In this document: positions 1,269 to 31,880 of the stretch, piece by piece
Numbering within the stretch: the first letter of the stretch is position 1
How the letters are laid out: each line of letters starts with the position of its first letter
Assembly (NCBI RefSeq): GCF_004010195.1
Contig: NC_057718.1
Location: 94,212,039-94,244,826 of the forward strand
Direction of reading: 5' to 3'
DNA length: 32,788 nucleotides
DNA from: Chiloscyllium plagiosum
Lineage: Eukaryota
Position numbers and translations under genes: made by a program
The notes under the pieces: model-generated
Told to the model about the DNA's origin: nothing
Seen by the model: only the letters and a program-made list of their open reading frames with translations
Databases searched by the model: none

Positions 1269-1287
1269 ATCTGTTTCCGTGCTGTAT

Positions 1288-1496
1288 AAAGTTTAAAAAT
1301 CACACAACGCCAGGTTATGGTCCAACAGGTTTATTTGGAAGCACTAGCTTTCGGAGCACTGCTCCTTTATTAGGTAATTGTCAACCACCTGATGAAGGAG
1401 CAGCTCTCCGAAAGCTAGTGTGCCTCCAAATAAACCTGTTGGACTATAACCTGGTGTTGTGTGATTTTTAACTTTGTACACCCCAGTCCAAATACA
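1288..1496. mobile_element. Penelope-like pLTR-derived palindromic element
   Basis: Inverted arms of ~90 bp (about 1283-1375 and 1387-1480) around a ~11-nt spacer. Flanking direct repeat TGCTGTAT at 1280-1287 and 1497-1504. Contains a hammerhead core. Confidence 0.8.
1386..1420 (+). ncRNA. Minimal hammerhead ribozyme motif (Penelope type)
   Basis: CAC-CTGATGA-A-GGAG(CAGCT)CTCC-GAA-AGCT-A-GTG. Stem I is CAC/GTG, stem II GGAG/CTCC, stem III the palindrome AGCT, and the cleavage triplet CUA. Confidence 0.75.
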
Positions 1497-1692
1497 TGCT
1501 GTATGGTTCTGTGACTCTATGACTCTATAACCGAGATATCTCAGGGGACAGAGAGATGGGCTTTCTGAATCTGTAAAGCTGAACAGTGTATTTCCATAAG
1601 AAACAATTCAGAGAATGTGCTAATATTGTATTGCACACCTTGACATGTTTATAACCTGCTTTTCATATTTATTGAAGCTTCAGTTGACTCAG

Positions 1693-1832
1693 TTAAAAAT
1701 CACACAACACCACCTGATGAAGGAGCGACGCTCTGAAAGCTAGTGTGCTTCCAATTAAACCTGTTGGACTATAACCTAGTGTTGTGTGATTTTTAATTTT
1801 GTACACCCCAGTCCAACACTGGCATCTCCGAA
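1693..1832 (+). mobile_element. Short Penelope-like pLTR-derived element with 13-bp TSD
   Basis: Same family as 1288-1496: a 20-nt inverted head followed by the forward unit. TCAGTTGACTCAG is duplicated at 1680-1692 and 1833-1845. Confidence 0.85.
1711..1745 (+). ncRNA. Minimal hammerhead ribozyme motif (Penelope type)
   Basis: CAC-CTGATGA-A-GGAGC(GAC)GCTCT-GAA-AGCT-A-GTG; the core is intact. Confidence 0.75.
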
Positions 1833-2013
1833 TCAGTTGACTCAGGTTTCTTTCCAGAGTTAAACTCATCAATGTCAGTGATACTCCACAAGAAGGGCAA
1901 GGCAAGTCATTTCAAGAAATTGGCTGGGTCCCCTGCAGCAACACTTTTGTGAAGAAGTAAAGAAAAACTATTGTGCCCTGCATGACCACCAAAAATGTTT
2001 CACCTCCATTTAA

Positions 2014-2329
2014 GCCTTTTTTCTCCAGGTCAGGGGAGTCCAAAACCAGAGGTTTAAGATAAGGGGGAAAGATTTAAAAGGGACATACTAGGGCAACATT
2101 TTCATGCAATGTGTGGTCCATGTTTGGAATGAGCTGCCAGAGGAAGTGATGGAAGCAGGTACAGTTACGCCATTAAAAAGGTATCTGGACGGGTACACGA
2201 ATAGGAAGGGTTTGGAGGGATATGGGCCAAACGCTGGCAAATAGGACTAGATTAATTTAGGATATCTGGTCGGCATGGACGAGTTGGACTGAAGGGTCTG
2301 TTTTTATGCTGTACACCTCTATCATTCTA
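2014..2329 (+). mobile_element. CR1/HER1 LINE 3' fragment
   Basis: Encodes a decayed GESKTRG...WNELPEEVMEAGT, followed by the 3' UTR GGTCGGCATGGACGAGTTGGACTGAAGGG and the tail. Confidence 0.9.
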
Positions 2330-4193: not shown

Positions 4194-4561
4194 ATTGATA
4201 AAAGAGTTGAGTGCTTCCCTCTAGTCTTTGGATAGGGAAAGATTCCGGAAGGGAAATAAAAACTTTAGATTTACAATAAAACCCTTATTGGATGGCTCAC
4301 GGAAGATGTTACCTAGTATGGTGACAAAACGTCTGAAAATGAACCTTCCAGCTCAGTGAGCAAACCTACATCCAGACCCTTGTAAATCTCTGAGAATCTT
4401 TTGCTGCCTCATTCAAGGATGAGTCAACACATGGATAGCTTTATACTGAACAATCTGTTTAAAAAAAACACTGCCCAGATAGCTCACCTGCTTGACAAAT
4501 CAGCTGCACCTTTTGGATCAAATTAATCACCATTGTGGGCTTCTACTAACTGGACCCAGAC

Positions 4562-5075
4562 TCATAGAGTCACAGTGATGCACAGCACCGAAACAGACCC
4601 TTCGGTCCAACTCGTCCATGCCGACCAGATGTCCTAAATTAGTCTAGTCCCATTTGCCAGCACTTGGCCCATATCACTCTAAATCCTTCCTATTCATATG
4701 TCTATCCTGATGCCTTTTAAATGCTGTAATTGTACCAGCCTCCACCACTTCTTCTGGCAGCTCATTCCACATACGCACCACCTTCTGCGCAAACAGGATG
4801 CCCCTTAGGTCCCTTTTATATCTTTCCCCTCTCACCCTAAACCTATGCCCTCTAGTTCTGGACTCTCCCACCACAGGGAAAATACTTTGTCTATTTATCC
4901 TATCCATGCCCCTCATGATTTTACAAACCTCTATAAGGTCACTCCTCAGCCTCTGACACTCCAGGGAAAACAGCTCCAGCCTATTCATCCACTCCCAATG
5001 GCTCAAACCCTCCAACACTGGCAACATCCTTGTAAATCGTTTCTGAACCCTTATAAGTTTCACAACATTCTTCTT
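4562..5075 (-). mobile_element. CR1/HER1 LINE 3' fragment (ORF2 C-terminus and 3' UTR)
   Basis: ORF 4674-5063: RVQKRFTRMLP...LFSLECQRLRSDLIEV...GESRTRGH...WNELPEEVVEAGT. Confidence 0.93.
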
Positions 5076-5771
5076 ATAATTTATTTCAGTGCAAAGATAC
5101 TAAAAGGCACATTGTAAAATACCTTAACATTTTTGCATTGTCTAAAAATGCTGACTGCCATACGTTAAAATGTCTAACAAATGGTCTGAATTTTCTTGCT
5201 TTAAGAACATACATTAAATTATTTAAAATCAGGTTTTTACATGTGGTAGACTAGATACTCAATGCATCACACTGTGCTGCGATGTTAAATCAATTTTGAC
5301 TATTGCTTTGAAGAATGAGTCAGCACACTCCCTTCATCAGAGATGCACTGCAGGAGTATTGTGTCTGTGCATTATAAGGTTCACTATGGCAGCTCACTAA
5401 GCTTATTCTGACAGCACCTGACCTCATGCACCTTCCCCCACCTTCCTCCAGGAACCATCACAGGCTTGAGAGGGCCAAGAACAGAAATATCATGGAAAAT
5501 TTTCATTTGTTCAAGAGAAGAAACACGATTTTGAGCATAATTTGAACACAGGCAATCATTTATGCCTTTGCTTTGATGTCTGATTTATGCAAAGCTCTGT
5601 CAATTACCAATTTTGCCAACAAATATTTGAATTTGTAGAAGATTGTAGTTCATGGTTGCTTGAGGAGGGGATGAATCTTTGAATTCCACCCCACCCCCAC
5701 AAACACACCTCAATTGGCTGTAACAAAGAATTTTTAATACTCTTTTGCACAGAGCTATATCACACATAACT

Positions 5772-5965
5772 AAAGATGTGAAGGTGCCAGTGTTGGGCTG
5801 GGGTGGGCAAAACCAGAAGTCACATGACACAGGTTATAGTCCTACAGGTTTATTAAAACCACAACCTTTCAAAACGCTGCCTCTTCATCAGGTGAAAGTT
5901 TGTGATTTTAAGTAAATCAGTTGGACTGTAACCTGGTGTCATGTGACTTCTGACTTTGCCCACTT
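5772..5965 (-). mobile_element. Older Penelope-like pLTR-derived, partly inverted element with a decayed hammerhead core
   Basis: Related to 1693-1832. The minus strand reads CACCTGATGAAGAGGCAGCGTTTTGAAAGGTTGTG at about 5860-5894. Inverted arms CAGAAGTCACATGACAC / GTGTCATGTGACTTCTG. Confidence 0.7.
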
Positions 5966-6757: not shown

Positions 6758-6843
6758 GAAGGAGGACTGCAGATGCTAGAGGTCAGAGTAAAAAAGTGTG
6801 GTGATGGAAAAGCACAGCCAGTCAGGCAGCATCTGAGGAGCAG
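6758..6843 (-). mobile_element. Penelope-like terminal repeat fragment (second family)
   Basis: GAGGACTGCAGATGCT...GGAAAAGCACAGC..CAGGCAGCATC is the reverse complement of 10770-10850. Confidence 0.65.
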
Positions 6844-10470: not shown

Positions 10471-10704
10471 CGTGAAACTTGAAGCCGTGCAAATTCCCTT
10501 TGACCTTTTCATCTTTGAAAACATTGAGCAGGATCTTCTGGACTTGGTCCCTGCTGTGAAAGGGATGCCATTTTCCAATTAGGAATTTGATTTCCTCTTT
10601 TGAGCTTTGCTGAGGTTCTTTCCCAGACAAATGGCATCAGATTCCTTGCATTGAGATTCCCATCCATTTCGGGAGACAAACCGAGATGCTCACCAGTTCT
10701 ATCG

Positions 10705-10852
10705 AAGCAAGGCGAATCGATGTTTCGGGCATGAGCCCTTCTAAGGCCAAAACGTCGATTCTCTTGCTCCTTGGATGCTGCCTGACTGCTGCGCTTTTCC
10801 AGCAACACATCATCGGCTCTGATCTAGAGCATCTGCAGTCCTCACTTTCTCC
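10705..10852 (+). mobile_element. Penelope-like pLTR-derived partly inverted element (second family)
   Basis: Inverted GAATCGATGTTTCGG / CCAAAACGTCGATTC. A partial hammerhead (GAAGGGCTCATGCCCGAAACATC) lies on the minus strand. Ends AGCATCTGCAGTCCTCACTTTCTCC. Confidence 0.7.
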
Positions 10853-10953: not shown

Positions 10954-11385
10954 TAAAATAAAGAACTGCATCTGTGGGAAATCTGAAACTAAAACAGAAA
11001 TTGCTGGAGAAACTCAGCAGGTCTGGCAGCATCAGTGTACAGAAAGCAGAGTTAACATTTCGGGGACCTGGTGAACCTTCTTCAGAGCTGATAGTCGCTA
11101 GGATGAGGTGGTCTATGTGCTGAAGATAGGGGCAGGAGTGTGCAAATCAGTGGAAACAGAGCCCACAGACAGAGCACATACCTTGTCATACACTGGGAGC
11201 GACAATGGAAGTAAAGACGGTGAACATGCGGAAAAATTAGAATGGGAATCCTGTTGGAGAGAGGAACAGAACATCTTCAAGGTAGGCACACCTGGAAAAG
11301 ATGCATTTAGTTAAACACTAAAATAAAACAAAGAACTATGGATGCTGGAGATGTGAAACAAAAATAGAAATTGCTGGAGAAACTC
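10954..11385 (-). mobile_element. Penelope-like terminal repeat fragments (third family), two copies
   Basis: AAAGAACT..GAT..TGG...TGAAAC.AAAA.AGAAATTGCTGGAGAAACTC occurs at about 10958-11015 and 11330-11385. The first copy continues into a decayed hammerhead at 11051-11088. Confidence 0.65.
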
Positions 11386-12917: not shown

Positions 12918-13927
12918 AGGGAAGTACTAAACAAGTATTTTGCATCAGTGTTTACTGTGGAGTAGGACATGGAAGATACAGAATGTGGGCCAATAGATTG
13001 TAACTTCTTGTAAAATGTCCATATTACAGAGGAGGAGGTGCTGGATATCTTAAAATGCATAAAAGTGGATAAATCTCCTGATCAGGTGCACCCTAGAACT
13101 CTGTGGGAAGCTAGGGAAGTGATTGCTGGGCTTCTTGCTGAGATATTTGTATGATCGATAGTTATAGGTGAGGTGCTGGACGTTGGCTAACTATGTTACT
13201 ATTTAAGGAAGATGGTAAAGACAAGCCAGGAAACTATAGACTGGTGAACCTGACATCAGTGGTGGACAGGTTGTTGGAGGGAAGCCTGAGGGACAGGATT
13301 TACATGTATTTGGAAAGGCAAAGACTGATTATGGATAGTCATCGTGGCTTTCTGCATGGGAAATTATGTCTCACGCACTTGAGTTTTTTGAAGACGTAAC
13401 AAAGAGGATTGATGAGGGCAGAGTGGTAGACACGATCTATATGGATGTCAGTAAGGCGTTTGACAAGGTTCCTCATGGTGGACTGGTTAACAAGGTTAGA
13501 TCTCATGGAATACAAAGAGAACTAGCCATTTGGGTACAGAACTGACTCAAAGGTGGAAGACAGAGGGTGATGGTTGAGGGCTGTTCTTCAAACTGGAGGC
13601 CTGTGACCACTGGTGTGCCACAAGGATCAGTGCTGAGACCACTGCTTTTCGTCATGGGTCTCCTTCCTATTGGAAGGATGTTGTGAAACTTGAAAGAGTT
13701 CAGAAAAGATTTACAAGAATGTTGCCAGGGTTTGAGGATTTGAGCTACAGGGAGAGGTTGAATAGGCTGGGGCTGTTTTCCCTGGAACGTTGGAGGCTGA
13801 GGGGTGACCTTATAGAGGTTAATAAAATCATGAGGGGTTTGGATAGGATAAATACACAAGGTCTTTTCCCTGAGTTGGGGGAATCCAGAACTAGAGGGCA
13901 TGGGTTTAGGGTGAGAGGGGAAAGATC
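12918..13927 (+). mobile_element. CR1/HER1 ORF2 (RT) fragment with internal deletion
   Basis: LFKEDGKDKPGNYRLVNLTSVV, YMDVSKAFDKVPH and GVPQGSVL.PLLFV, then a jump at about 13655 to KLERVQKRFTRMLPG...GESRTRGH. Confidence 0.93.
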
Positions 13928-13928
13928 T

Positions 13929-14085
13929 AGCATGGCCAACCCACCCAACCTGCACATTTTTGGACTGTGGGAGGAAACCCATGCAGACATGGGGAGAATG
14001 TGTAAATCCACACAGACAGTCACTCAAGGGCTAAATTGAAATGGTGATATGAAGCAGCAATGCTAACCACTCAGCCACCATGCCA
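13929..14085 (-). mobile_element. HE1 SINE, 5' portion only
   Basis: TAGCATGGCCAA...TTTGGACTGTGGGAGGAAACC...TGCTAACCACT. Confidence 0.85.
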
Positions 14086-23716: not shown

Positions 23717-23864
23717 TAGAATATAGAACATGGAACATTACAGTGCAGTACAGGCCCTTCGGTCCTCAATGTTGCGTCAACCTGTGAAACTAATCTGAAG
23801 CCCACTAATCTACACTATTCCATTCTCATCCATATGTCTATCCAATGACTATTTAAATGCTCTT
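23717..23864 (-). mobile_element. CR1-type 3' end acting as host of the L1 insertion (resumes at 29449-29487)
   Basis: (TAGAACA)n-like tail and ACAGGCCCTTCGG. The sequence continues after the L1 as AAATGCCCTTAACGTTGGCGAGTCTACTACTGTTGC. Confidence 0.75.
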
Positions 23865-23873
23865 GGGGAGATC

Positions 23874-23885
23874 CAAGATGGCGGC
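23874..23885 (+). promoter_or_regulatory. YY1-type motif in the L1 5' UTR internal promoter
   Basis: CAAGATGGCGGC, 9 nt after the element start; matches the YY1 consensus. Confidence 0.6.
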
Positions 23886-24038
23886 GTCCTGTTAGGATCG
23901 TGTTTGCTGGGCTCCGCACTGCAACACCAACCTGACAGAGCCAGGATCCATCCCAAACACTTTACTGTGCGTAAAAACACAGTAAAGCAGGTAGAAACCA
24001 GAAAGAAAATGACTCACCCTTGTCCTTGCAGCTGGAGA

Positions 24039-24860
24039 ATGCCAAAGAAGGCAAAAAGCTCACCTGGGGCACAGGCCACAGCCCAGCCCACTGAAGCAGC
24101 AGGTTTGCTTCCTCACCAGGCCCTGGTTGAGAAGCTGGCCAAATATTGCGGGGTCCTGGGGAGGCAGATCCAGGAAAAAATCGAGGAGAAGCTGGCTCCT
24201 ATATATCTGCTATGCTGCAAGACTTGGGGAAAAAGGAACGATGAGCTCAAGCGCTGGGCTGCAGGGGGAGAGGCAGACGCTGACTCCTCCAAGGGCCAGA
24301 TTAAAGCACAGGTCCGTGGTCTGTTGGATCAGGTAGATGATCTCAAAAACCGATCTAGAAGAAAGAACCTGCGTATTGTTGGCATACCGGAGAGGACAGA
24401 GGGTGAGCGTCTGGTGGAGTTCTTCAAGAAGTGGTTCCTGGAGTTCCTTGGTTTGGGGTTGAGAAGGGAAGGATAACAATTGAAAAGGCCACCAGATCAC
24501 GCCACGAAAACCAGGTGGGGATCAGCGCCAATGCCCTGCCCTGGTGAGGGTTCATCATTATAAAGACAAGTGGAGGGTCATGGAAGCCTCGAGAGCCCAG
24601 GGGAGGGATTCGAGTGCATTAGTATGTAGCGGCTCCAGGGTCATATTTGTTCAAGACTTCTCGGTGGCAGTGATCCAGAAAAGGAAGTCCTACGATGGCA
24701 TCAAGAGGAGATTGATTCAGCTTGGGATCCAGTATTCTTTATGATAACCAGTGGTGCTTCGGATCAATCATTTTTGGATCCATTCATTTGTTTGACTCGT
24801 CAGAGAAAGCGAAGAACTTTGTGGACACGTTAACTTCAGTCGAACGGCCAAACAGACGTA
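24039..24860 (+). pseudogene. L1 ORF1p (Transposase_22-like RNA-binding protein), frameshifted
   Basis: MPKKAK... DDLKNRSRRKNLRIVGIPE, VRVHHYKDK, IFVQDFSVAVIQKRKSY, HLFDSSEKAKNFV. The end coordinate is approximate. Confidence 0.9.
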
Positions 24861-25377
24861 GAGGGCAGAACTGTTTGGGTTTGCTTTTCTTTAAAAAGGA
24901 CTTGATGGAGTCTCCTTTCTGATAATAAGTTGCATGAAATGATGTGGGTTGGATAGAGTATCTGTTTTTAATCTCTAAATTATGTTAAGGGATGGGTAAC
25001 ATATTTACTTTTAGTCTACTTGCCTATAGTACTAACCTTGCTTTTGGGTGTTTCTTTTTTCTCTACCGGGTGGTCGGTGAATGTTGCGTGACCCTAGCTG
25101 GTAGGAGTTGAGAGGGTGTTTGGGATGGTTAGTAGGGTTGTAGGATGTGTAGGCACTCCGTTTGAATCGGGAGTACATGCCTCCAATCAGTGCCTTTGGC
25201 GATTGTTTGTTCCCCTGGTTTTGCTGTGCATAGTTTTTGTAAGTTCTGTAGATTTGTTGGCTGTTGTTATTTTAGTCTGTGTAGTTTTTGGGATTTGTGG
25301 TTTCTTTTGCATTAAATCTCAGTGGTCTGTAGTTCGGGTTCTTCCTCTCTGGAGTCTAGATGGTGCTGTGGAAGGTT

Positions 25378-28300
25378 ATGGCTCAGGATGTGTTGAAGTC
25401 GTGCGCCTGAAATATTAGGGGGAGTCACTCACCTGTCAAGAGGAAGAAGGTACTTTCCAGCCTTTAAACGGAGAGGGTGGATGTTGCCTTATTACAAGAA
25501 GCACACCTGGATGATGCAGAGCATTTGAAGCTGCAACAGAAAGGGTATGACCGGGCTTATTTTTCATTTTTCAATACGAGGAGTAGAGGGGTGGCCATTT
25601 TAGTGAGAAAGAATCTCCCATTTAAGTTGTTAGAGTCTATTAAAGACACACATGGGAGATTTGTAATCATTAAAGCTTTGGTACATAGGGAAGAATATGA
25701 GGTCTTAAATGTTTACTATCCACTGGTCCACCCCCTTAAATTCTTGACAGACAAACATTCTAGACTAGTTAACCTTGCATCTTAACATATAATTGTAGGA
25801 GAGGATTTCAATTGTCTCGTAGACCCTACAGTAGACAGATTGCCCAAAGGCCGGCTCATTTCTGCTCTGCAATCTAAACAATTAAGGGATCTGTGTGCTG
25901 AATTGGGGTTGGTAGATGTTTGGAGGCACCTTCGCCCTGCTGGCAGGGACTTCACGTTCTTCTCGAACCCACATAAAGGCCATACAAGGATTGATCTCTT
26001 TCTGACCCCCACAGCACATCTGGGCTCGGTGGTGTCATGTACACTATCACTATTTCTGATCACGCCCCAGTGTATTCAACAGTGAACAGTAAGGATACTG
26101 TGGTAGGCTCGAGGCACTAGCGACTGGACCCCTTCATCCTTAAGGATACCAAGTTTATTGAATTGCTTTCTACTCAGTTCAGGGCTTTTTAGATATTAAT
26201 TCAGACTTGGTCAGTAGCCCATCCATCCTTTGGGAAACAGCAAAAGCCTATTGCTGAGGGTTGGTTATTTCCTATTCAGCCAGTAAGAAGCAATGGACGG
26301 GTGACAAGCAACGCTTGCTCGAGGTGCATCTGAAAATAGCTGAAAAGGCATATTTTGACAGGCTCTCACTGGTTAAACTGCAGAGGATCACGGCACTTCA
26401 GTCTATGCTGAACTCCATGCTCACATGGACAGCCAAAAGGGAGCTTACATTTGCAAGTCAAAGGCTGTTTGAGCATGAGGATAAGCCAGGCAAGTGCGTA
26501 GCACATCTTGCTAGGAAAAAGAGTGCCCCCCCCCCCGCCCCCCCAGGCCATTACCTTGATCAGAGAGGCCACTAGAAATTTGACCTACGATTCTAAAAGG
26601 ATTCATGCAGCATTCTGGAAATTTTACTCTGAATTTTATCAACCTGAAAGCTATGAGAGTGGGCAGGTTAGGATGGAGTCATTTTTTAAGAATTTGGACC
26701 TTCCAAGAGTGACCCCTGAACAAGAGTCTCTCCTCAATGCACCATTGCCAAAGCAAGAGGAGCAGGAGGCTGTGAGGCAGCTCCAGAATGGGAAGGCGCC
26801 AGGTCCTGATGGGCTCCCTACTGAGTTCTGTAAGGAATTTATAAGTAGGTTGTCAGGGCTGATGCTTGGTATGTTTACTGACTCTCACAGTTGTGGCCTC
26901 CTCCCACCCTCTCTAAGAGAAGTGAACATCTCTCTCATTCTTAAAAAAAGGGAAGGCCCCAGAGAATTGTGCTTCCAATAGACCCATTTCACTCCTGAGT
27001 GTCGACTTCAAAATTCTATCCAAGACTCTGGCATTAAAGCAAGAAACTGTATTGCCCTCCATCATTAAGGGGGACCAGACGGGGTTCATAAAAAGTCGCA
27101 GATCGGCGGATAATTTCAGGAGCTGACTTAACATAATCCAAGTAAGTCAACAACGATTGGTAATCTCCTAAGATGCGGAAAAGGCATTTGACAGAGTCGA
27201 GTGGCCATATCTCTTTCATACTTTGAAGCGGTTTGGCCTGGGAGAGACCTTTATCAGGTGGGTGAAGCTTTTGTACAGTGATCCTCTTGCTGTGGTCCTC
27301 ACCAATGGTATACAGTCAAGCAATTTTAATATTTGTAGGGGCAGTTGACAGGGCTGTCCCTTGTCACCATTGCTTTTCACATTGGTGATCGAACCGCTGG
27401 TGGAGGCAACACATAGGGATAACTCCAGAAGTGGGGACAAAGTCGCATAAGATCGCACTGCATGCAGATGGTGTTCTTGTCTTCTTATCAAACCCACAGT
27501 CTCAGTGCCATATCTGACACAATGCATCAATCTGTCTGGTGGCTTTTTGGGTTATAAGAGCAATTTTGCGAAGTCAGAGGCCATGTCCCTGGGTGGTCTC
27601 CCGAGAGTGCCTGATCCTGAGGGCGGATCTCGGTTCCCCTTTAGATGATTGCAGGAGGGACATCTCTACTCAGGTATATTTATTGCTCCCATTTTTGATT
27701 GGCTATTTGAAGCCAATTTTGCCCACTTATTCGACAGAATCAAGCAGGATTTTCGTTGATGGGAGGTGCTTCTGATATCTTGGTTAGGTTGGATAGCCCT
27801 CATTAAAATGAACATTCTGCCCCGCCTGTTGTATCCTATGCAAATGCTTCCTCTGCTTTTTACTAAGCAGATATTTAAAAACTGAATAGCTGGTTTAGTT
27901 CTTTTATCTGGTATTGCAAGCAGCCCCTAATTAAATTGACTAAATTGTATTTACCTTATCGACTGGGAGGAGTGGACCTCCCTGATATCAAAAACTATCA
28001 GTTAAGCTCATTGCTATTTTACGTGACTGATTGGGCCCAGGGGACCCTCACTCACTTTGGTTGGACATCGAAGTATCTCAGGTAAGCTGCCCCCTTATTA
28101 GCTTGTTGTTCTTAGAAAAAATGGGAACAGTTAAGGAATATTGTCATAGCCCAATAGTCATCAATACTGACAATGCGTGGAGGGCAATGCATCAGGGTGA
28201 GAGCAGTATTGCCAAAACATCATCTTTGACACCCATTGTTGGTATGCTGGGCTTTCAGCCAGGGATAACGAACTCTGGGTTTAAGCTATGTACAGCTAGG

Positions 28301-29162
28301 GGCAAATCTTGCCTGTGTGATTTATTCGAAGGGGACATACTGATGTCCCTTGACCAGTTGGCTCGGAAATATGAATTGCCAGTAGGGACCTCTTTCATTT
28401 CTTTCAAATTAGAAACTTCATACAAAAAGAGACCGCACTTCTAACTGATCCTTATAGGCCCGACATGGAGACGAGGGTGTTGATACTGAGGGTACATTAT
28501 CTGTTGACAATGCTTATCATCTATTGGGAGATGATCCCTCAAACGAGACCAAATGGCTCTGTAAGGTATGGGAGGGGGAGCTGGACATTGAGATCGCTTC
28601 TGAAATATGGGAGGATATCTGGGAAAATACAAGAAGGATCTCGATTTGCAACAGGATCCATGCCTTCCAATTGAAGATTCTCCACAGGGTCCCTCTGGTC
28701 CCAGACTGCCTTGCTAAATTTAAAGTGTGAGAATATCCAAAGTGTCCTAAATGTAAAGTGAGCGTGGGCATGATTCCTCACTGTCTTTGGTCCTGCCACA
28801 GACTATGGGCATACAGGAGCGCTGTGGTAGGTGAAATAGAATAGGCTTTGGGGACGGAGGTGGAGATGAACCCAGTACCTCTTCTTCTTGGCTTTGTTAA
28901 TTCACTTTCATTAGATGCACACAAAAGAAGGCTTTTCAGTATCCTCACTTTGTGTGCCAGAAAGAACATTCTATTAGGGTGGGTGTCGGACAATCTCCTG
29001 GGGCTGGCAGGCTGGCGTAAGCTAGTCATGGAGCACATCCCCTTGGACTTTCTTACGAGTATGGTGCACCATAAAACTGAGAACTTCTATAATTCGTGGC
29101 GGACCTCTTTGGACTACCTGGGTACAGATTTGTCCACCATACTAATTAGAGCTTTTATATAG
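25378..29162 (+). pseudogene. L1 ORF2p (APE endonuclease, reverse transcriptase, CCHC), multiply disrupted
   Basis: DVALLQEAHL, GEDFN, RIDLFL, ISDHAPV; KAPGPDG, RPISLL, DAEKAFDRVEW, QGCPLSPLLF, LHADG (mutated YADD); CPKC..HCLWSC. Many stops and frameshifts. Confidence 0.95.
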
Positions 29163-31185: not shown

Positions 31186-31218
31186 ATCAAGATGCTCAAT
31201 ACAAACAATAAAAAAAAC

Positions 31219-31880
31219 CCCACCCCAACACACACAAACGAAGCTGCATCAGGACACTATTCAAAAGGGCCACAACACACTGCAGTACACCAGGACTGCA
31301 AAAAGAAGAAGAGGAACACCTATACAAGGTATTCTCCAAAAACGGATACCCACGCAACTTCATCAGCAGATTCCTAAGAGAAAGACCACGGAACGAGGAC
31401 ATACCACAACCAAAGGACTAGCCACACTACCATACATCAGGAGCATCTCGGAACTGACTGCCAGACTACTGCGACCCCTAGGACTCATAATGGCACATAA
31501 ACCAACAGCCACGCTCAGACAACAACTCACCAGAACGAAGGACCCGATACCCAACATGAGCAAGACGAATGTAGTGTACAAAATACCATGCAAGGACTGC
31601 ACAAAACACTATATAGGACAAACAGGAAGACAGCTAACAACCCGCATACATGAACATCAACTAGCCACGAAACGACACGAACAGCTATCCTTAGTAGCCA
31701 CAGACCACTATAAACACCGGAGGAAACATCAAAGAAGTGCTTCGCAGGAGGCTCCCAAGCACTGATGATGTCGCCTAGCCAGGGGACGAAACGTTTGCAA
31801 CAAAAACTTCCAGCTCGGCGAACAGAACCACAGCAACGAGCATCCGAGCTACAAATCTTCGCACAAACTTTGCACAAACT
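31219..31880 (+). mobile_element. Penelope-like element 3' fragment: RT thumb, linker, GIY-YIG endonuclease (frameshifted and internally deleted) and pLTR
   Basis: PNTHKRSCIRTLFKRATTHCS...NGYPRNFI; TLPYIRSISE; NVVYKIPCKDCTKHYIGQTGRQLTTRIHEH. Deletion junction near 31700. Confidence 0.93.
31759..31798 (+). ncRNA. Minimal hammerhead ribozyme motif in the Penelope pLTR
   Basis: GCA-CTGATGA-T-GTCGCCT(AGCC)AGGGGAC-GAA-ACGT-T-TGC. Stem I GCA/TGC, stem II 6 of 7 bp, palindromic stem III ACGT, triplet GUU. Confidence 0.8.

What the first reader, a model, noticed from the sequence alone, without database searches (positions are those of the whole stretch)
1288..1845. Tiny non-coding, hammerhead-carrying Penelope derivatives with their own target-site duplications
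Seen: two elements of about 210 and 140 bp, 200 bp apart. Each consists of an inverted piece plus a forward unit beginning at an intact hammerhead core (1386-1420, 1711-1745). They are flanked by direct repeats TGCTGTAT (1280-1287/1497-1504) and TCAGTTGACTCAG (1680-1692/1833-1845). Established: Penelope-like element pLTRs carry minimal hammerhead motifs with a palindromic helix III, and their insertions often have an inverted 5' pLTR fragment. Inference: these are independent insertions, either extreme truncations of the parent element or a non-autonomous ribozyme-bearing family. In both copies the forward unit starts within a few nt of stem I, hinting that the ribozyme fold sets the truncation point.
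Basis: partly seen in the sequence, partly recalled or inferred. Interest (0 to 1): 0.7.

Follow-up and report, generated by a model that had tools for sequence, protein, structure and literature searches.

The report
Shark Penelope retroelement end-piece insertions
The two small elements are real, old, separate insertions of the end piece of a very abundant Penelope-like jumping gene in a shark genome, a known kind of thing, with one extra twist: the piece carries a working poly(A) signal, which suggests that such stubs are copied from the very start of the element's RNA.

Summary
Observation confirmed. Both elements, their duplications and hammerhead motifs are where stated; a third, older copy lies at 5782-5963. 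They are end-only insertions of a very abundant Penelope-like element (PLE) of a carpet-shark genome (over 100,000 contigs laid in each of 3 DNA runs), apparently shared by three species labels. Inverted arms end at the family's tail-less end and forward arms at the tailed end: the published 'inverted copy + tail + TSD' pattern. All 3 forward arms start within 8 nt upstream of the hammerhead core, 30-36 nt before the cut site, so cleavage does not set the 5' end, and a fold-induced stall predicts the other side. New here: family RNA is polyadenylated 13-15 nt behind a hexamer lying between hammerhead and tail (1,439 of 4,034 laid reads). My best model: stubs are copied from the tail near the RNA's start up to its 5' end ('strong-stop'-like). 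No coding parent or start site could be shown. New member of a known kind.

The parts
1278..1287 (+). Left target-site duplication of element 1 (8 bp exact at 1280-1287, 10 bp with one mismatch), inside a pre-existing repeat tail
1288..1381 (-). Inverted arm of element 1: from the tail-less end (equivalent to 1475) to 8 nt upstream of the core; hammerhead core mutated; lacks a 2-nt insert that the forward arm has
   Evidence: tail-less end class
1382..1494 (+). Forward arm of element 1; starts 7 nt upstream of C3; tail shortened by about 15 nt
   Evidence: loose end at 1491
1386..1420 (+). Minimal type I hammerhead motif, copy 1: helix I 3 bp, helix II 4 bp, G10.1-C11.1, palindromic 4-nt helix III, predicted cut after 1417
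   Evidence: consensus
1429..1434 (+). Polyadenylation hexamer AATAAA of copy 1
1495..1504 (+). Right target-site duplication of element 1
1680..1692 (+). Left 13-bp target-site duplication of element 2; its last 2 letters also match the inverted arm
1693..1712 (-). Short inverted arm of element 2 (20 nt), outer end at the tail-less end (equivalent to 1471-1473); 4 letters (1709-1712) fit both arms
1709..1835 (+). Forward arm of element 2; starts 1-5 nt upstream of C3; full tail; last 3 letters shared with the right duplication
1711..1745 (+). Minimal hammerhead motif, copy 2: helix I 3 bp, helix II 5 bp, G10.1-U11.1 wobble, predicted cut after 1742
1754..1795 (+). Polyadenylation module: hexamer ATTAAA 1754-1759, poly(A) addition site at about 1772-1774 (seen in family RNA, not shown for this locus), G/T-rich stretch behind it
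1800..1835 (+). 'Tail': optional 35-40-nt 3' extension between the two end classes of the family
   Evidence: loose ends at 1472/1473/1475 and 1835
1833..1845 (+). Right 13-bp target-site duplication of element 2
5782..5963 (-). Third, older element of the same kind (about 79% to copy 2): forward arm 5894-5782 starting 1-3 nt upstream of C3, inverted arm 5895-5963; no duplication found

Best explanation
Each element is a single, dead-on-arrival insertion of the terminal module (pseudo-LTR end plus tail) of an endonuclease-bearing Penelope-like retroelement. The element's protein nicks both target strands 10-13 bp apart; each nick primes reverse transcription at one of two internal start sites on the element RNA, the tail end (forward arm) and a site 35-40 nt upstream (inverted arm); the two cDNAs meet head to head, are joined through 2-4 nt of microhomology, and repair leaves the duplication. 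The forward arms are short and start just upstream of the hammerhead because the template ends there: the module carries a poly(A) site upstream of the tail, so a normally terminated transcript has a tail only in its first, 5' copy of the module, and copying from there runs off the RNA's 5' end after about 130 nt, much like retroviral strong-stop DNA. The hammerhead is a passenger in these stubs. Shown: anatomy, duplications, two end classes, abundance, 5' clustering (roughly), polyadenylation of family RNA. Inferred from published PLE biochemistry: two-strand nicking and two internal start sites. Inferred only: that the RNA starts 8-12 nt upstream of the core, and that a coding parent with this terminus exists.
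For: Duplications and restored target. Family ends fall in two classes, 1472-1475 and 1835, in the listed loose ends of the three DNA runs (e.g. X1: 490, 689 and 740 contigs); the outer ends of the two inverted arms map to 1475 and 1471-1473, the forward arm of element 2 to 1835. This is the inverted-copy-plus-tail pattern (PMC8557442 passages; PMC3846280) and the two-start-site result of PMC11167929. Inverted arms are 94, 20 and 69 nt with three different junctions. Forward arms start at -7, -5 to -1 and -3 to -1 from C3, not at the cut. Loose ends that run upstream through the core keep a common consensus for 18 letters (to -12) and then turn A/T-rich like flanks, agreement 0.47 (507 contigs, X6) and 0.50 (609, X14); a toy model gives 0.83-0.94 for ends spread evenly along one long parent and about 0.50 for ends within those 18 letters. 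Poly(A) at one site in 1,439 of 4,034 laid RNA reads, genomic sequence behind it not A-rich (4 A in 20). PLE start sites lie inside the pseudo-LTR (PMC2377424 passages). In vitro, hammerhead cleavage is not needed for insertion.
Against: No parent with RT and GIY-YIG domains and this terminus was found: no genome is held, pattern scans gave 0, a protein search with an antisense frame gave 0. No start site was mapped; one search lists no place where many molecules begin or end, and that library reads 3' ends. Longer upstream sequence exists in RNA (520 reads at 1711, agreement 0.86; 506 reads at 1367, agreement 0.59, a different sequence), so not all copies stop at -12; these may be parent or host flank. 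Contigs are not copies, several parent subfamilies diverging at -12 would also blur the consensus, and only 24 of about 2,040 loose-end rows were shown. The poly(A) reads may come from a few host genes rather than from element transcripts. The region just upstream of the core is partly complementary to the module's 3' part, which could by itself attract the junction of element 2. Inverted arms of elements 2 and 3 stop well short of the supposed RNA end, and other terminal families in the window have copies truncated inside or behind their motif.
Confidence: 0.55

Rival explanations
1. A dedicated non-autonomous mini-family: short copies with an internal promoter are themselves transcribed (start at the unit's 5' edge) and re-mobilised in trans by a PLE protein, as SINEs are by LINEs.
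For: Very high abundance; sharp 5' edge; internal promoter in Penelope; non-autonomous PLE derivatives are in print (MRC1 in PMC8557442; monomers in bioRxiv 10.64898/2026.07.22.740005).
Against: The family's RNA is cut and polyadenylated upstream of the tail, so a lone short copy would mostly make tail-less RNA that lacks the start sites; longer upstream sequence exists in RNA; arms differ per copy. No depth over the unique flanks of these two loci in the RNA run.
Confidence: 0.18
2. One reading: the hammerhead fold, or a protein bound to it, fixes the 5' edge, for instance by protecting the RNA from 5' decay or by releasing the polymerase once it has passed the motif.
For: 5' ends hug helix I in 3 of 3 copies; two copies of other terminal families in the window seem to start 2 and 13 nt upstream of their cores (6-bp duplications only, weak); the anole hammerhead is protein-assisted.
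Against: A simple stall or cleavage predicts starts 3' of the core; helix I is 3 bp and the hammerhead fold is not the minimum-energy fold; start sites of PLEs lie in the same repeat anyway.
Confidence: 0.12
3. Ordinary heavy 5' truncation of a long template, with junctions drawn to this spot by microhomology between the two cDNAs and by ascertainment (only copies with a whole motif get noticed).
For: 2-4 nt fit both arms at the junctions of elements 2 and 3; copies of other families truncate at other places, one about 570 nt upstream inside the ORF; strong 5' truncation is typical of PLEs.
Against: Element 1's two arms end within 1 nt of each other without such homology; the third copy was not ascertained; with ends uniform over 150-3,000 nt, two free copies fall in a 13-nt zone with probability 0.008 to 0.00002; loose-end agreement fits a sharp edge.
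Confidence: 0.12
4. Monomers of a non-LTR retrozyme that replicates through self-cleaved circular RNA.
For: Type I hammerhead; retrozymes are reported in one cartilaginous fish and linked to PLE repeats.
Against: No head-to-tail array: the two units have their own duplications and a unique spacer; units do not begin at the cut site; minimal, not canonical, motif; tail and inverted arm are PLE insertion marks.
Confidence: 0.03

Closest known systems
Insertion units of endonuclease-bearing Penelope-like elements: pseudo-LTR, adjacent inverted 5'-truncated copy, optional 30-40-bp tail, 8-10-bp TSD (Arkhipova et al. 2013, PMC3846280; Craig et al. 2021, PMC8557442)
   Same: Inverted arm without tail, forward arm with tail, duplication of similar size, strong 5' truncation, microhomology joins.
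   Different: Here nothing but the end module is present (140-210 bp), at very high abundance, with 5' ends bunched at the hammerhead; the coding parent was not seen, so the clade is unassigned.
Minimal hammerheads (min-HHR) of metazoan PLE repeats (Cervera and De la Pena 2014, PMC4209133)
   Same: Core CUGANGAH...GAAA, extra base before helix II, short helix I, palindromic helix III; mostly single motifs from truncated PLEs, and opposite-strand pairs 100-700 bp apart are described. The turtle motif in Fig. S3 has the same helix III letters and an AAUAAA just downstream.
   Different: No shark motif in the searched supplement file (0 hits); opposite-strand cores here are about 25 nt apart; copy 2 has a G-U closing pair.
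Anole PLE PAc in vitro (Frangieh et al. 2024, PMC11167929)
   Same: Two internal start sites of reverse transcription that bound the tail; cleavage of both strands; hammerhead not required.
   Different: Different family; the paper assumes multi-copy mRNA as template and, in the parts read, does not deal with poly(A) sites or fixed 5' ends.
Animal non-LTR retrozymes (Cervera and De la Pena 2020, PMC7229834; Li et al. 2026, bioRxiv 10.64898/2026.07.22.740005)
   Same: Short, non-coding, type I hammerhead, related to PLE repeats; dispersed monomers exist.
   Different: Retrozymes are head-to-tail arrays with canonical motifs that yield circular RNA; these elements are single, tailed, partly inverted insertions.

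Membership tests
Endonuclease-bearing PLE insertion | Inverted 5'-truncated copy directly adjacent to the forward copy | tested here: met
   3 of 3 elements
Endonuclease-bearing PLE insertion | Optional 30-40-bp tail, present at one end only | tested here: met
   Two end classes 35-40 nt apart; inverted arms tail-less, forward arms tailed
Endonuclease-bearing PLE insertion | Target-site duplication of about 8-13 bp | tested here: met
   2 of 3 elements; none found for the old third copy; no empty allele seen
Endonuclease-bearing PLE insertion | Parent with one ORF encoding telomerase-like RT and GIY-YIG endonuclease ending in this terminus; clade (Neptune or Penelope/Poseidon) | not testable with these tools
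   No genome held; 0 matches. The GIY-YIG fragment at 31262-31762 ends in a different terminus
Minimal hammerhead of metazoan PLEs | Conserved core, extra base before helix II, helix II of 4 or more pairs, short helix I, palindromic helix III | tested here: met
   Copies 1 and 2 against the consensus of Fig. S3
Minimal hammerhead of metazoan PLEs | G10.1-C11.1 pair | tested here: inconclusive
   Met in copy 1 and in the family majority (C in about three quarters of depth at 1734); G-U in copies 2 and 3
Minimal hammerhead of metazoan PLEs | Self-cleavage as a dimer | not testable with these tools
   Needs a bench assay; published rates are low
Non-LTR retrozyme | Head-to-tail array with a hammerhead in at least two consecutive units | tested here: not met
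   Separate duplications and unique spacer 1505-1679; family-wide arrays not tested
Non-LTR retrozyme | Self-cleaved monomeric or circular RNA | not testable with these tools
   Poly(A)-primed library only
MITE or other DNA-transposon derivative | Fixed terminal inverted repeats at both ends | tested here: not met
   Arm lengths 94, 20 and 69 nt, and a one-sided tail beyond the palindrome

The most novel reading that the evidence does not exclude
The terminal repeat of this PLE family is organised like a retroviral U3-R-U5: RNA start just upstream of the hammerhead, poly(A) site behind it, priming sites (tail) further down. Ordinary transcripts can then be primed only near their 5' end, and the mass of 130-bp stubs in shark genomes are integrated 'strong-stop' products; full-length copies need read-through or a strand jump between the two R regions. 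That would explain pseudo-LTR and partial-tandem formation, and it means the family has scattered working poly(A) sites through the shark genome.
Probability: 0.3. Interest if true: 0.65.

Novelty: new member of a known kind. Interest (0 to 1): 0.3.

Why it matters
The elements themselves are ordinary relics, and the scan has met the family over a hundred times in this genome. What could matter: how PLEs make their pseudo-LTRs, tandems and inversions is an open question in the papers read, and a family with very many junctions, a sharp 5' edge, two 3' ends and a mapped poly(A) site makes the template question testable by one start-site experiment and one breakpoint table. A mobile, working poly(A) module at this abundance should also shape shark transcript ends and should be depleted on the sense strand of introns.

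Tried and rejected
Whole genome: none held, so the genome-wide breakpoint table could not be made. Pattern scans of viral and metagenome contigs: 0 and 0; the second metagenome scan and the prokaryote genomes were not used. Rfam: 4 weak matches, none a hammerhead, none near the finding. Run search: no RNA holder listed; RNA came from a same-label raw run. No pile-up of read starts or ends at the predicted cut (table 6): uninformative for a poly(A)-primed, fragmented library. The RNA joint 1417 to 1745 (39 reads) is read as a 2-nt length variant laid across two copies, not as splicing or circularisation. No joint that skips either element is among the 15 shown of about 1,590, so no empty allele was seen. 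Antisense-frame protein search to fish for a parent: 3 candidates, none scored. The window's GIY-YIG fragment as parent: rejected, its terminus differs. Bacterial promoter scan: not applicable to a vertebrate. Folding z-scores of the two forward units: not above chance. Motif search in paper texts and in the supplement of PMC8557442: 0; supplements of PMC11167929: 0 hits. Lunse et al. 2017 is not held. PMC12602865 (passages) had nothing on termini. Look-ups of earlier notes by sequence and by relatives gave nothing.

Full report
Setting. The window is repeat-rich vertebrate DNA. The closest relatives of a GIY-YIG fragment at 31262-31762 (Pfam E 0.005, below the cut-off; best hit 89% identical) are named from Chiloscyllium, Rhincodon and Stegostoma (5 of 150 listed hits looked up), so the host is very likely a carpet shark. 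No whole genome is held.

Observation. Both direct repeats are exact at the stated places. Among 5,000 random pairs of 25-nt flanks, 38 share 8 or more letters and 1 shares 13. The 8-bp repeat extends to 10 bp with one CpG-type mismatch, and the flanks of element 1, with one copy of the repeat, align without gaps across the junction to 7 other places in the window (77-87% over 30-45 nt): element 1 landed in an older repeat tail (CR1-type by my recall). Element 1 is an inverted arm (1288-1381) and a forward arm (1382-1494); element 2 an inverted arm of 20 nt (1693-1712) and a forward arm (1709-1835). A third, older element on the minus strand (5782-5963) has the same build with a 69-nt inverted arm and no detectable duplication. 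A relaxed minimal-hammerhead descriptor finds 5 sites in the window, three of them these forward arms, against 0 in each of 20 shuffles. Copy 1 meets the consensus of Fig. S3 of PMC4209133 in full; copy 2 has G10.1-U11.1; the motif in the inverted arm of element 1 has two core changes.

Abundance and age. Laying three DNA runs with different species labels on 1130-2010 at 85% likeness placed 116,781, 109,792 and 125,208 contigs. Contigs of organisms B and C cover the spacer and reach into both elements (1466-1720 with 4 differences, 1464-1720 with 9, 1809-1995 with 10, 1813-2008 with 9, 1204-1312 with 9). Only the right junction of element 1 has 31 letters on both sides; the others have 20-28 on the element side, so sharing of element 2 and of the left junction is likely rather than proven. 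No empty allele is among the 15 joints shown of about 1,590. These are old, probably fixed relics.

Two 3' ends. Listed loose ends with flank-like consensus sit at 1472, 1473 and 1475 and at 1835 (the last listed for X1 and X6), 35-40 nt apart in the unit; those at 1491 show the part of the tail that element 1 has lost. The outer ends of the inverted arms map to 1475 (element 1) and 1471-1473 (element 2); the forward arm of element 2 runs to 1835. This is the published pattern: an inverted 5'-truncated copy next to the forward copy and a 30-40-bp tail at one end only (PMC8557442, passages; PMC3846280, parts 1-3 of 5, with 8-10-bp duplications). PMC11167929 (parts 1-2 of 4) shows for an anole PLE that the tail lies between two internal start sites of reverse transcription, that both target strands are cut and extended, that hammerhead cleavage needs protein and is not required, and that no RNA reads end at the cut site. 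PMC4209133 (parts 1-2 of 4; supplement file 2, parts 1-2 of 3; file 1 could not be searched) already describes single motifs from truncated PLEs and opposite-strand pairs. The kind of object is therefore known.

5' ends. The forward arms start 7, 1-5 and 1-3 nt upstream of C3, while the predicted cuts lie after 1417 and 1742, 28 nt downstream of C3; both arms of element 1 end within 1 nt of each other. Leaving one copy aside as ascertained, two more in a 13-nt zone have probability 0.008 to 0.00002 for ends uniform over 150-3,000 nt. Genome-wide, contigs that leave the mutated inverted arm at 1367 keep one consensus for 18 letters (to 12 nt upstream of C3) and then turn A/T-rich, with agreement 0.47 (507 contigs, X6) and 0.50 (609, X14); pure flank rows give 0.33-0.37. 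My toy model gives 0.83-0.94 for ends spread evenly along one long parent, 0.59 for an exponential of mean 20 nt, and about 0.50 for ends within the 18 letters with no more than about a tenth running on. It ignores parent subfamilies and contig collapse, and 24 of about 2,040 loose-end rows were visible, so it supports a sharp edge but does not measure it. Against a strict edge: 520 RNA reads carry a shared 24-letter consensus upstream of 1711 and 506 carry a different one; either may be parent or host flank. Cleavage, or a stall at the fold, would leave units that begin downstream of the core; helix I has 3 pairs and the units fold no better than shuffles.

RNA. From about 2% of one poly(A)-primed single-cell run of organism A, 4,034 reads lay on the stretch, only 72 at 99% or better and none on the unique flanks at 1520-1669 and 1850-2010: they come from other copies. 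Orientation is about 11 to 1 and 7 to 1 in the two deepest bins, in the sense of the hammerhead-bearing strand. Four of the six listed loose-end rows are poly(A) or poly(T) runs of about 70 letters (313, 416, 306 and 404 reads, 1,439 of 4,034); after mirroring the inverted arm they all point to 1772-1774, 13-15 nt behind the hexamer at 1754-1759 and in front of a G/T-rich stretch. The genomic letters behind the site are not A-rich (4 of 20), so internal priming is unlikely. The number of loci behind these reads is unknown, and they may be host transcripts. Still, the module holds a working poly(A) site between the hammerhead and both 3' end classes.

Mechanism. A transcript that ends at that site has no tail in its last repeat. 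Its only priming sites are then in the first repeat, near the 5' end, and PLE transcription is known to start inside the pseudo-LTR (PMC2377424, abstract and passages; PMC6765202, passages). Copying from there yields about 130 nt if the RNA starts just upstream of the hammerhead. Two such cDNAs, one from each nick and each start site, joined head to head, give exactly these elements; early stops give the shorter inverted arms. The anatomy, end classes and poly(A) site are shown; two-strand priming is taken from the anole work; the start site and the parent are inferred. I put the PLE-insertion reading at about 0.9 and the whole model at 0.55; rivals are a self-propagating short family (0.18), a fold- or protein-protected edge (0.12), microhomology-guided ordinary truncation (0.12) and a retrozyme (0.03). 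The 2-nt difference between the arms of element 1 matches two common variants of the family and may mean two template RNAs, or later slippage.

Novelty. The family is a new member of a known kind. The scan has noted it before on other DNA of this genome (113 of 187 notes fit the look-up), including the 5' clustering and the idea that the template starts there; I had written that idea down, before seeing them, and a repeat is not independent evidence. Two word look-ups for polyadenylation found no note holding all words. Paper searches (listings only unless named above) showed no paper on this shark family or on a strong-stop reading of PLE stubs; the whale-shark genome paper only lists Penelope as present (passage). 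Retrozyme papers: PMC7229834 (passages) and bioRxiv 10.64898/2026.07.22.740005 (parts 1-3 of 5; its supplements, which hold a cartilaginous-fish family list, were not seen). Repbase, Dfam, Lunse et al. 2017 and the 2005-2006 reviews were not available, so a prior description is possible.

Verdict. Real, well explained, mostly ordinary; interest 0.3, with a 0.3 chance of a mechanistic point worth 0.65.

Noticed in passing
window 31190-31880 (+): 5'-truncated copy of a second PLE family: C-terminal ORF fragment with GIY-YIG motif, stop codon inside a different minimal hammerhead (C3 at 31762), truncated about 570 nt upstream of it. Not the parent of the finding.
   Followed up: partly
window 4287-4375 (+): 89-bp end piece related to the 31762 terminus (73% over 70 nt), degenerate hammerhead, starts 13 nt upstream of the core, flanked by a 6-bp repeat (weak).
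   Followed up: partly
window 10954-11087 (-): 134-bp end piece of another terminal family with a degenerate hammerhead-like motif, starting 2 nt upstream of the core, flanked by a 6-bp repeat (weak); a shorter relative without the motif at 11323-11385.
   Followed up: partly
window 10690-10850: Diverged fold-back of a further family with hammerhead-like pieces on both strands, forward part starting inside helix II; a relative without the motif at 6762-6842 (-).
   Followed up: partly
window 1288-1494: The two arms of element 1 differ by a 2-nt insert just behind the cut site that marks two common family variants; could reflect two template RNAs in one insertion.
   Followed up: partly
window 1833-1838 equivalent, family tail end (loose ends at 1491 and 1835): The family's tail ends in an ATG followed by a few shared letters; it may be the start codon of the unseen parent ORF.
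   Followed up: no
window 23799-29162: Long decayed L1/Tx1-like element (ORF1-, endonuclease- and RT-like fragments in the ORF list; label recalled) with many breaks.
   Followed up: no
window 2091-2329, 4565-5099, 13503-14039 and others: Many CR1-type LINE and SINE 3' fragments (labels recalled); their tails served as target for element 1.
   Followed up: partly
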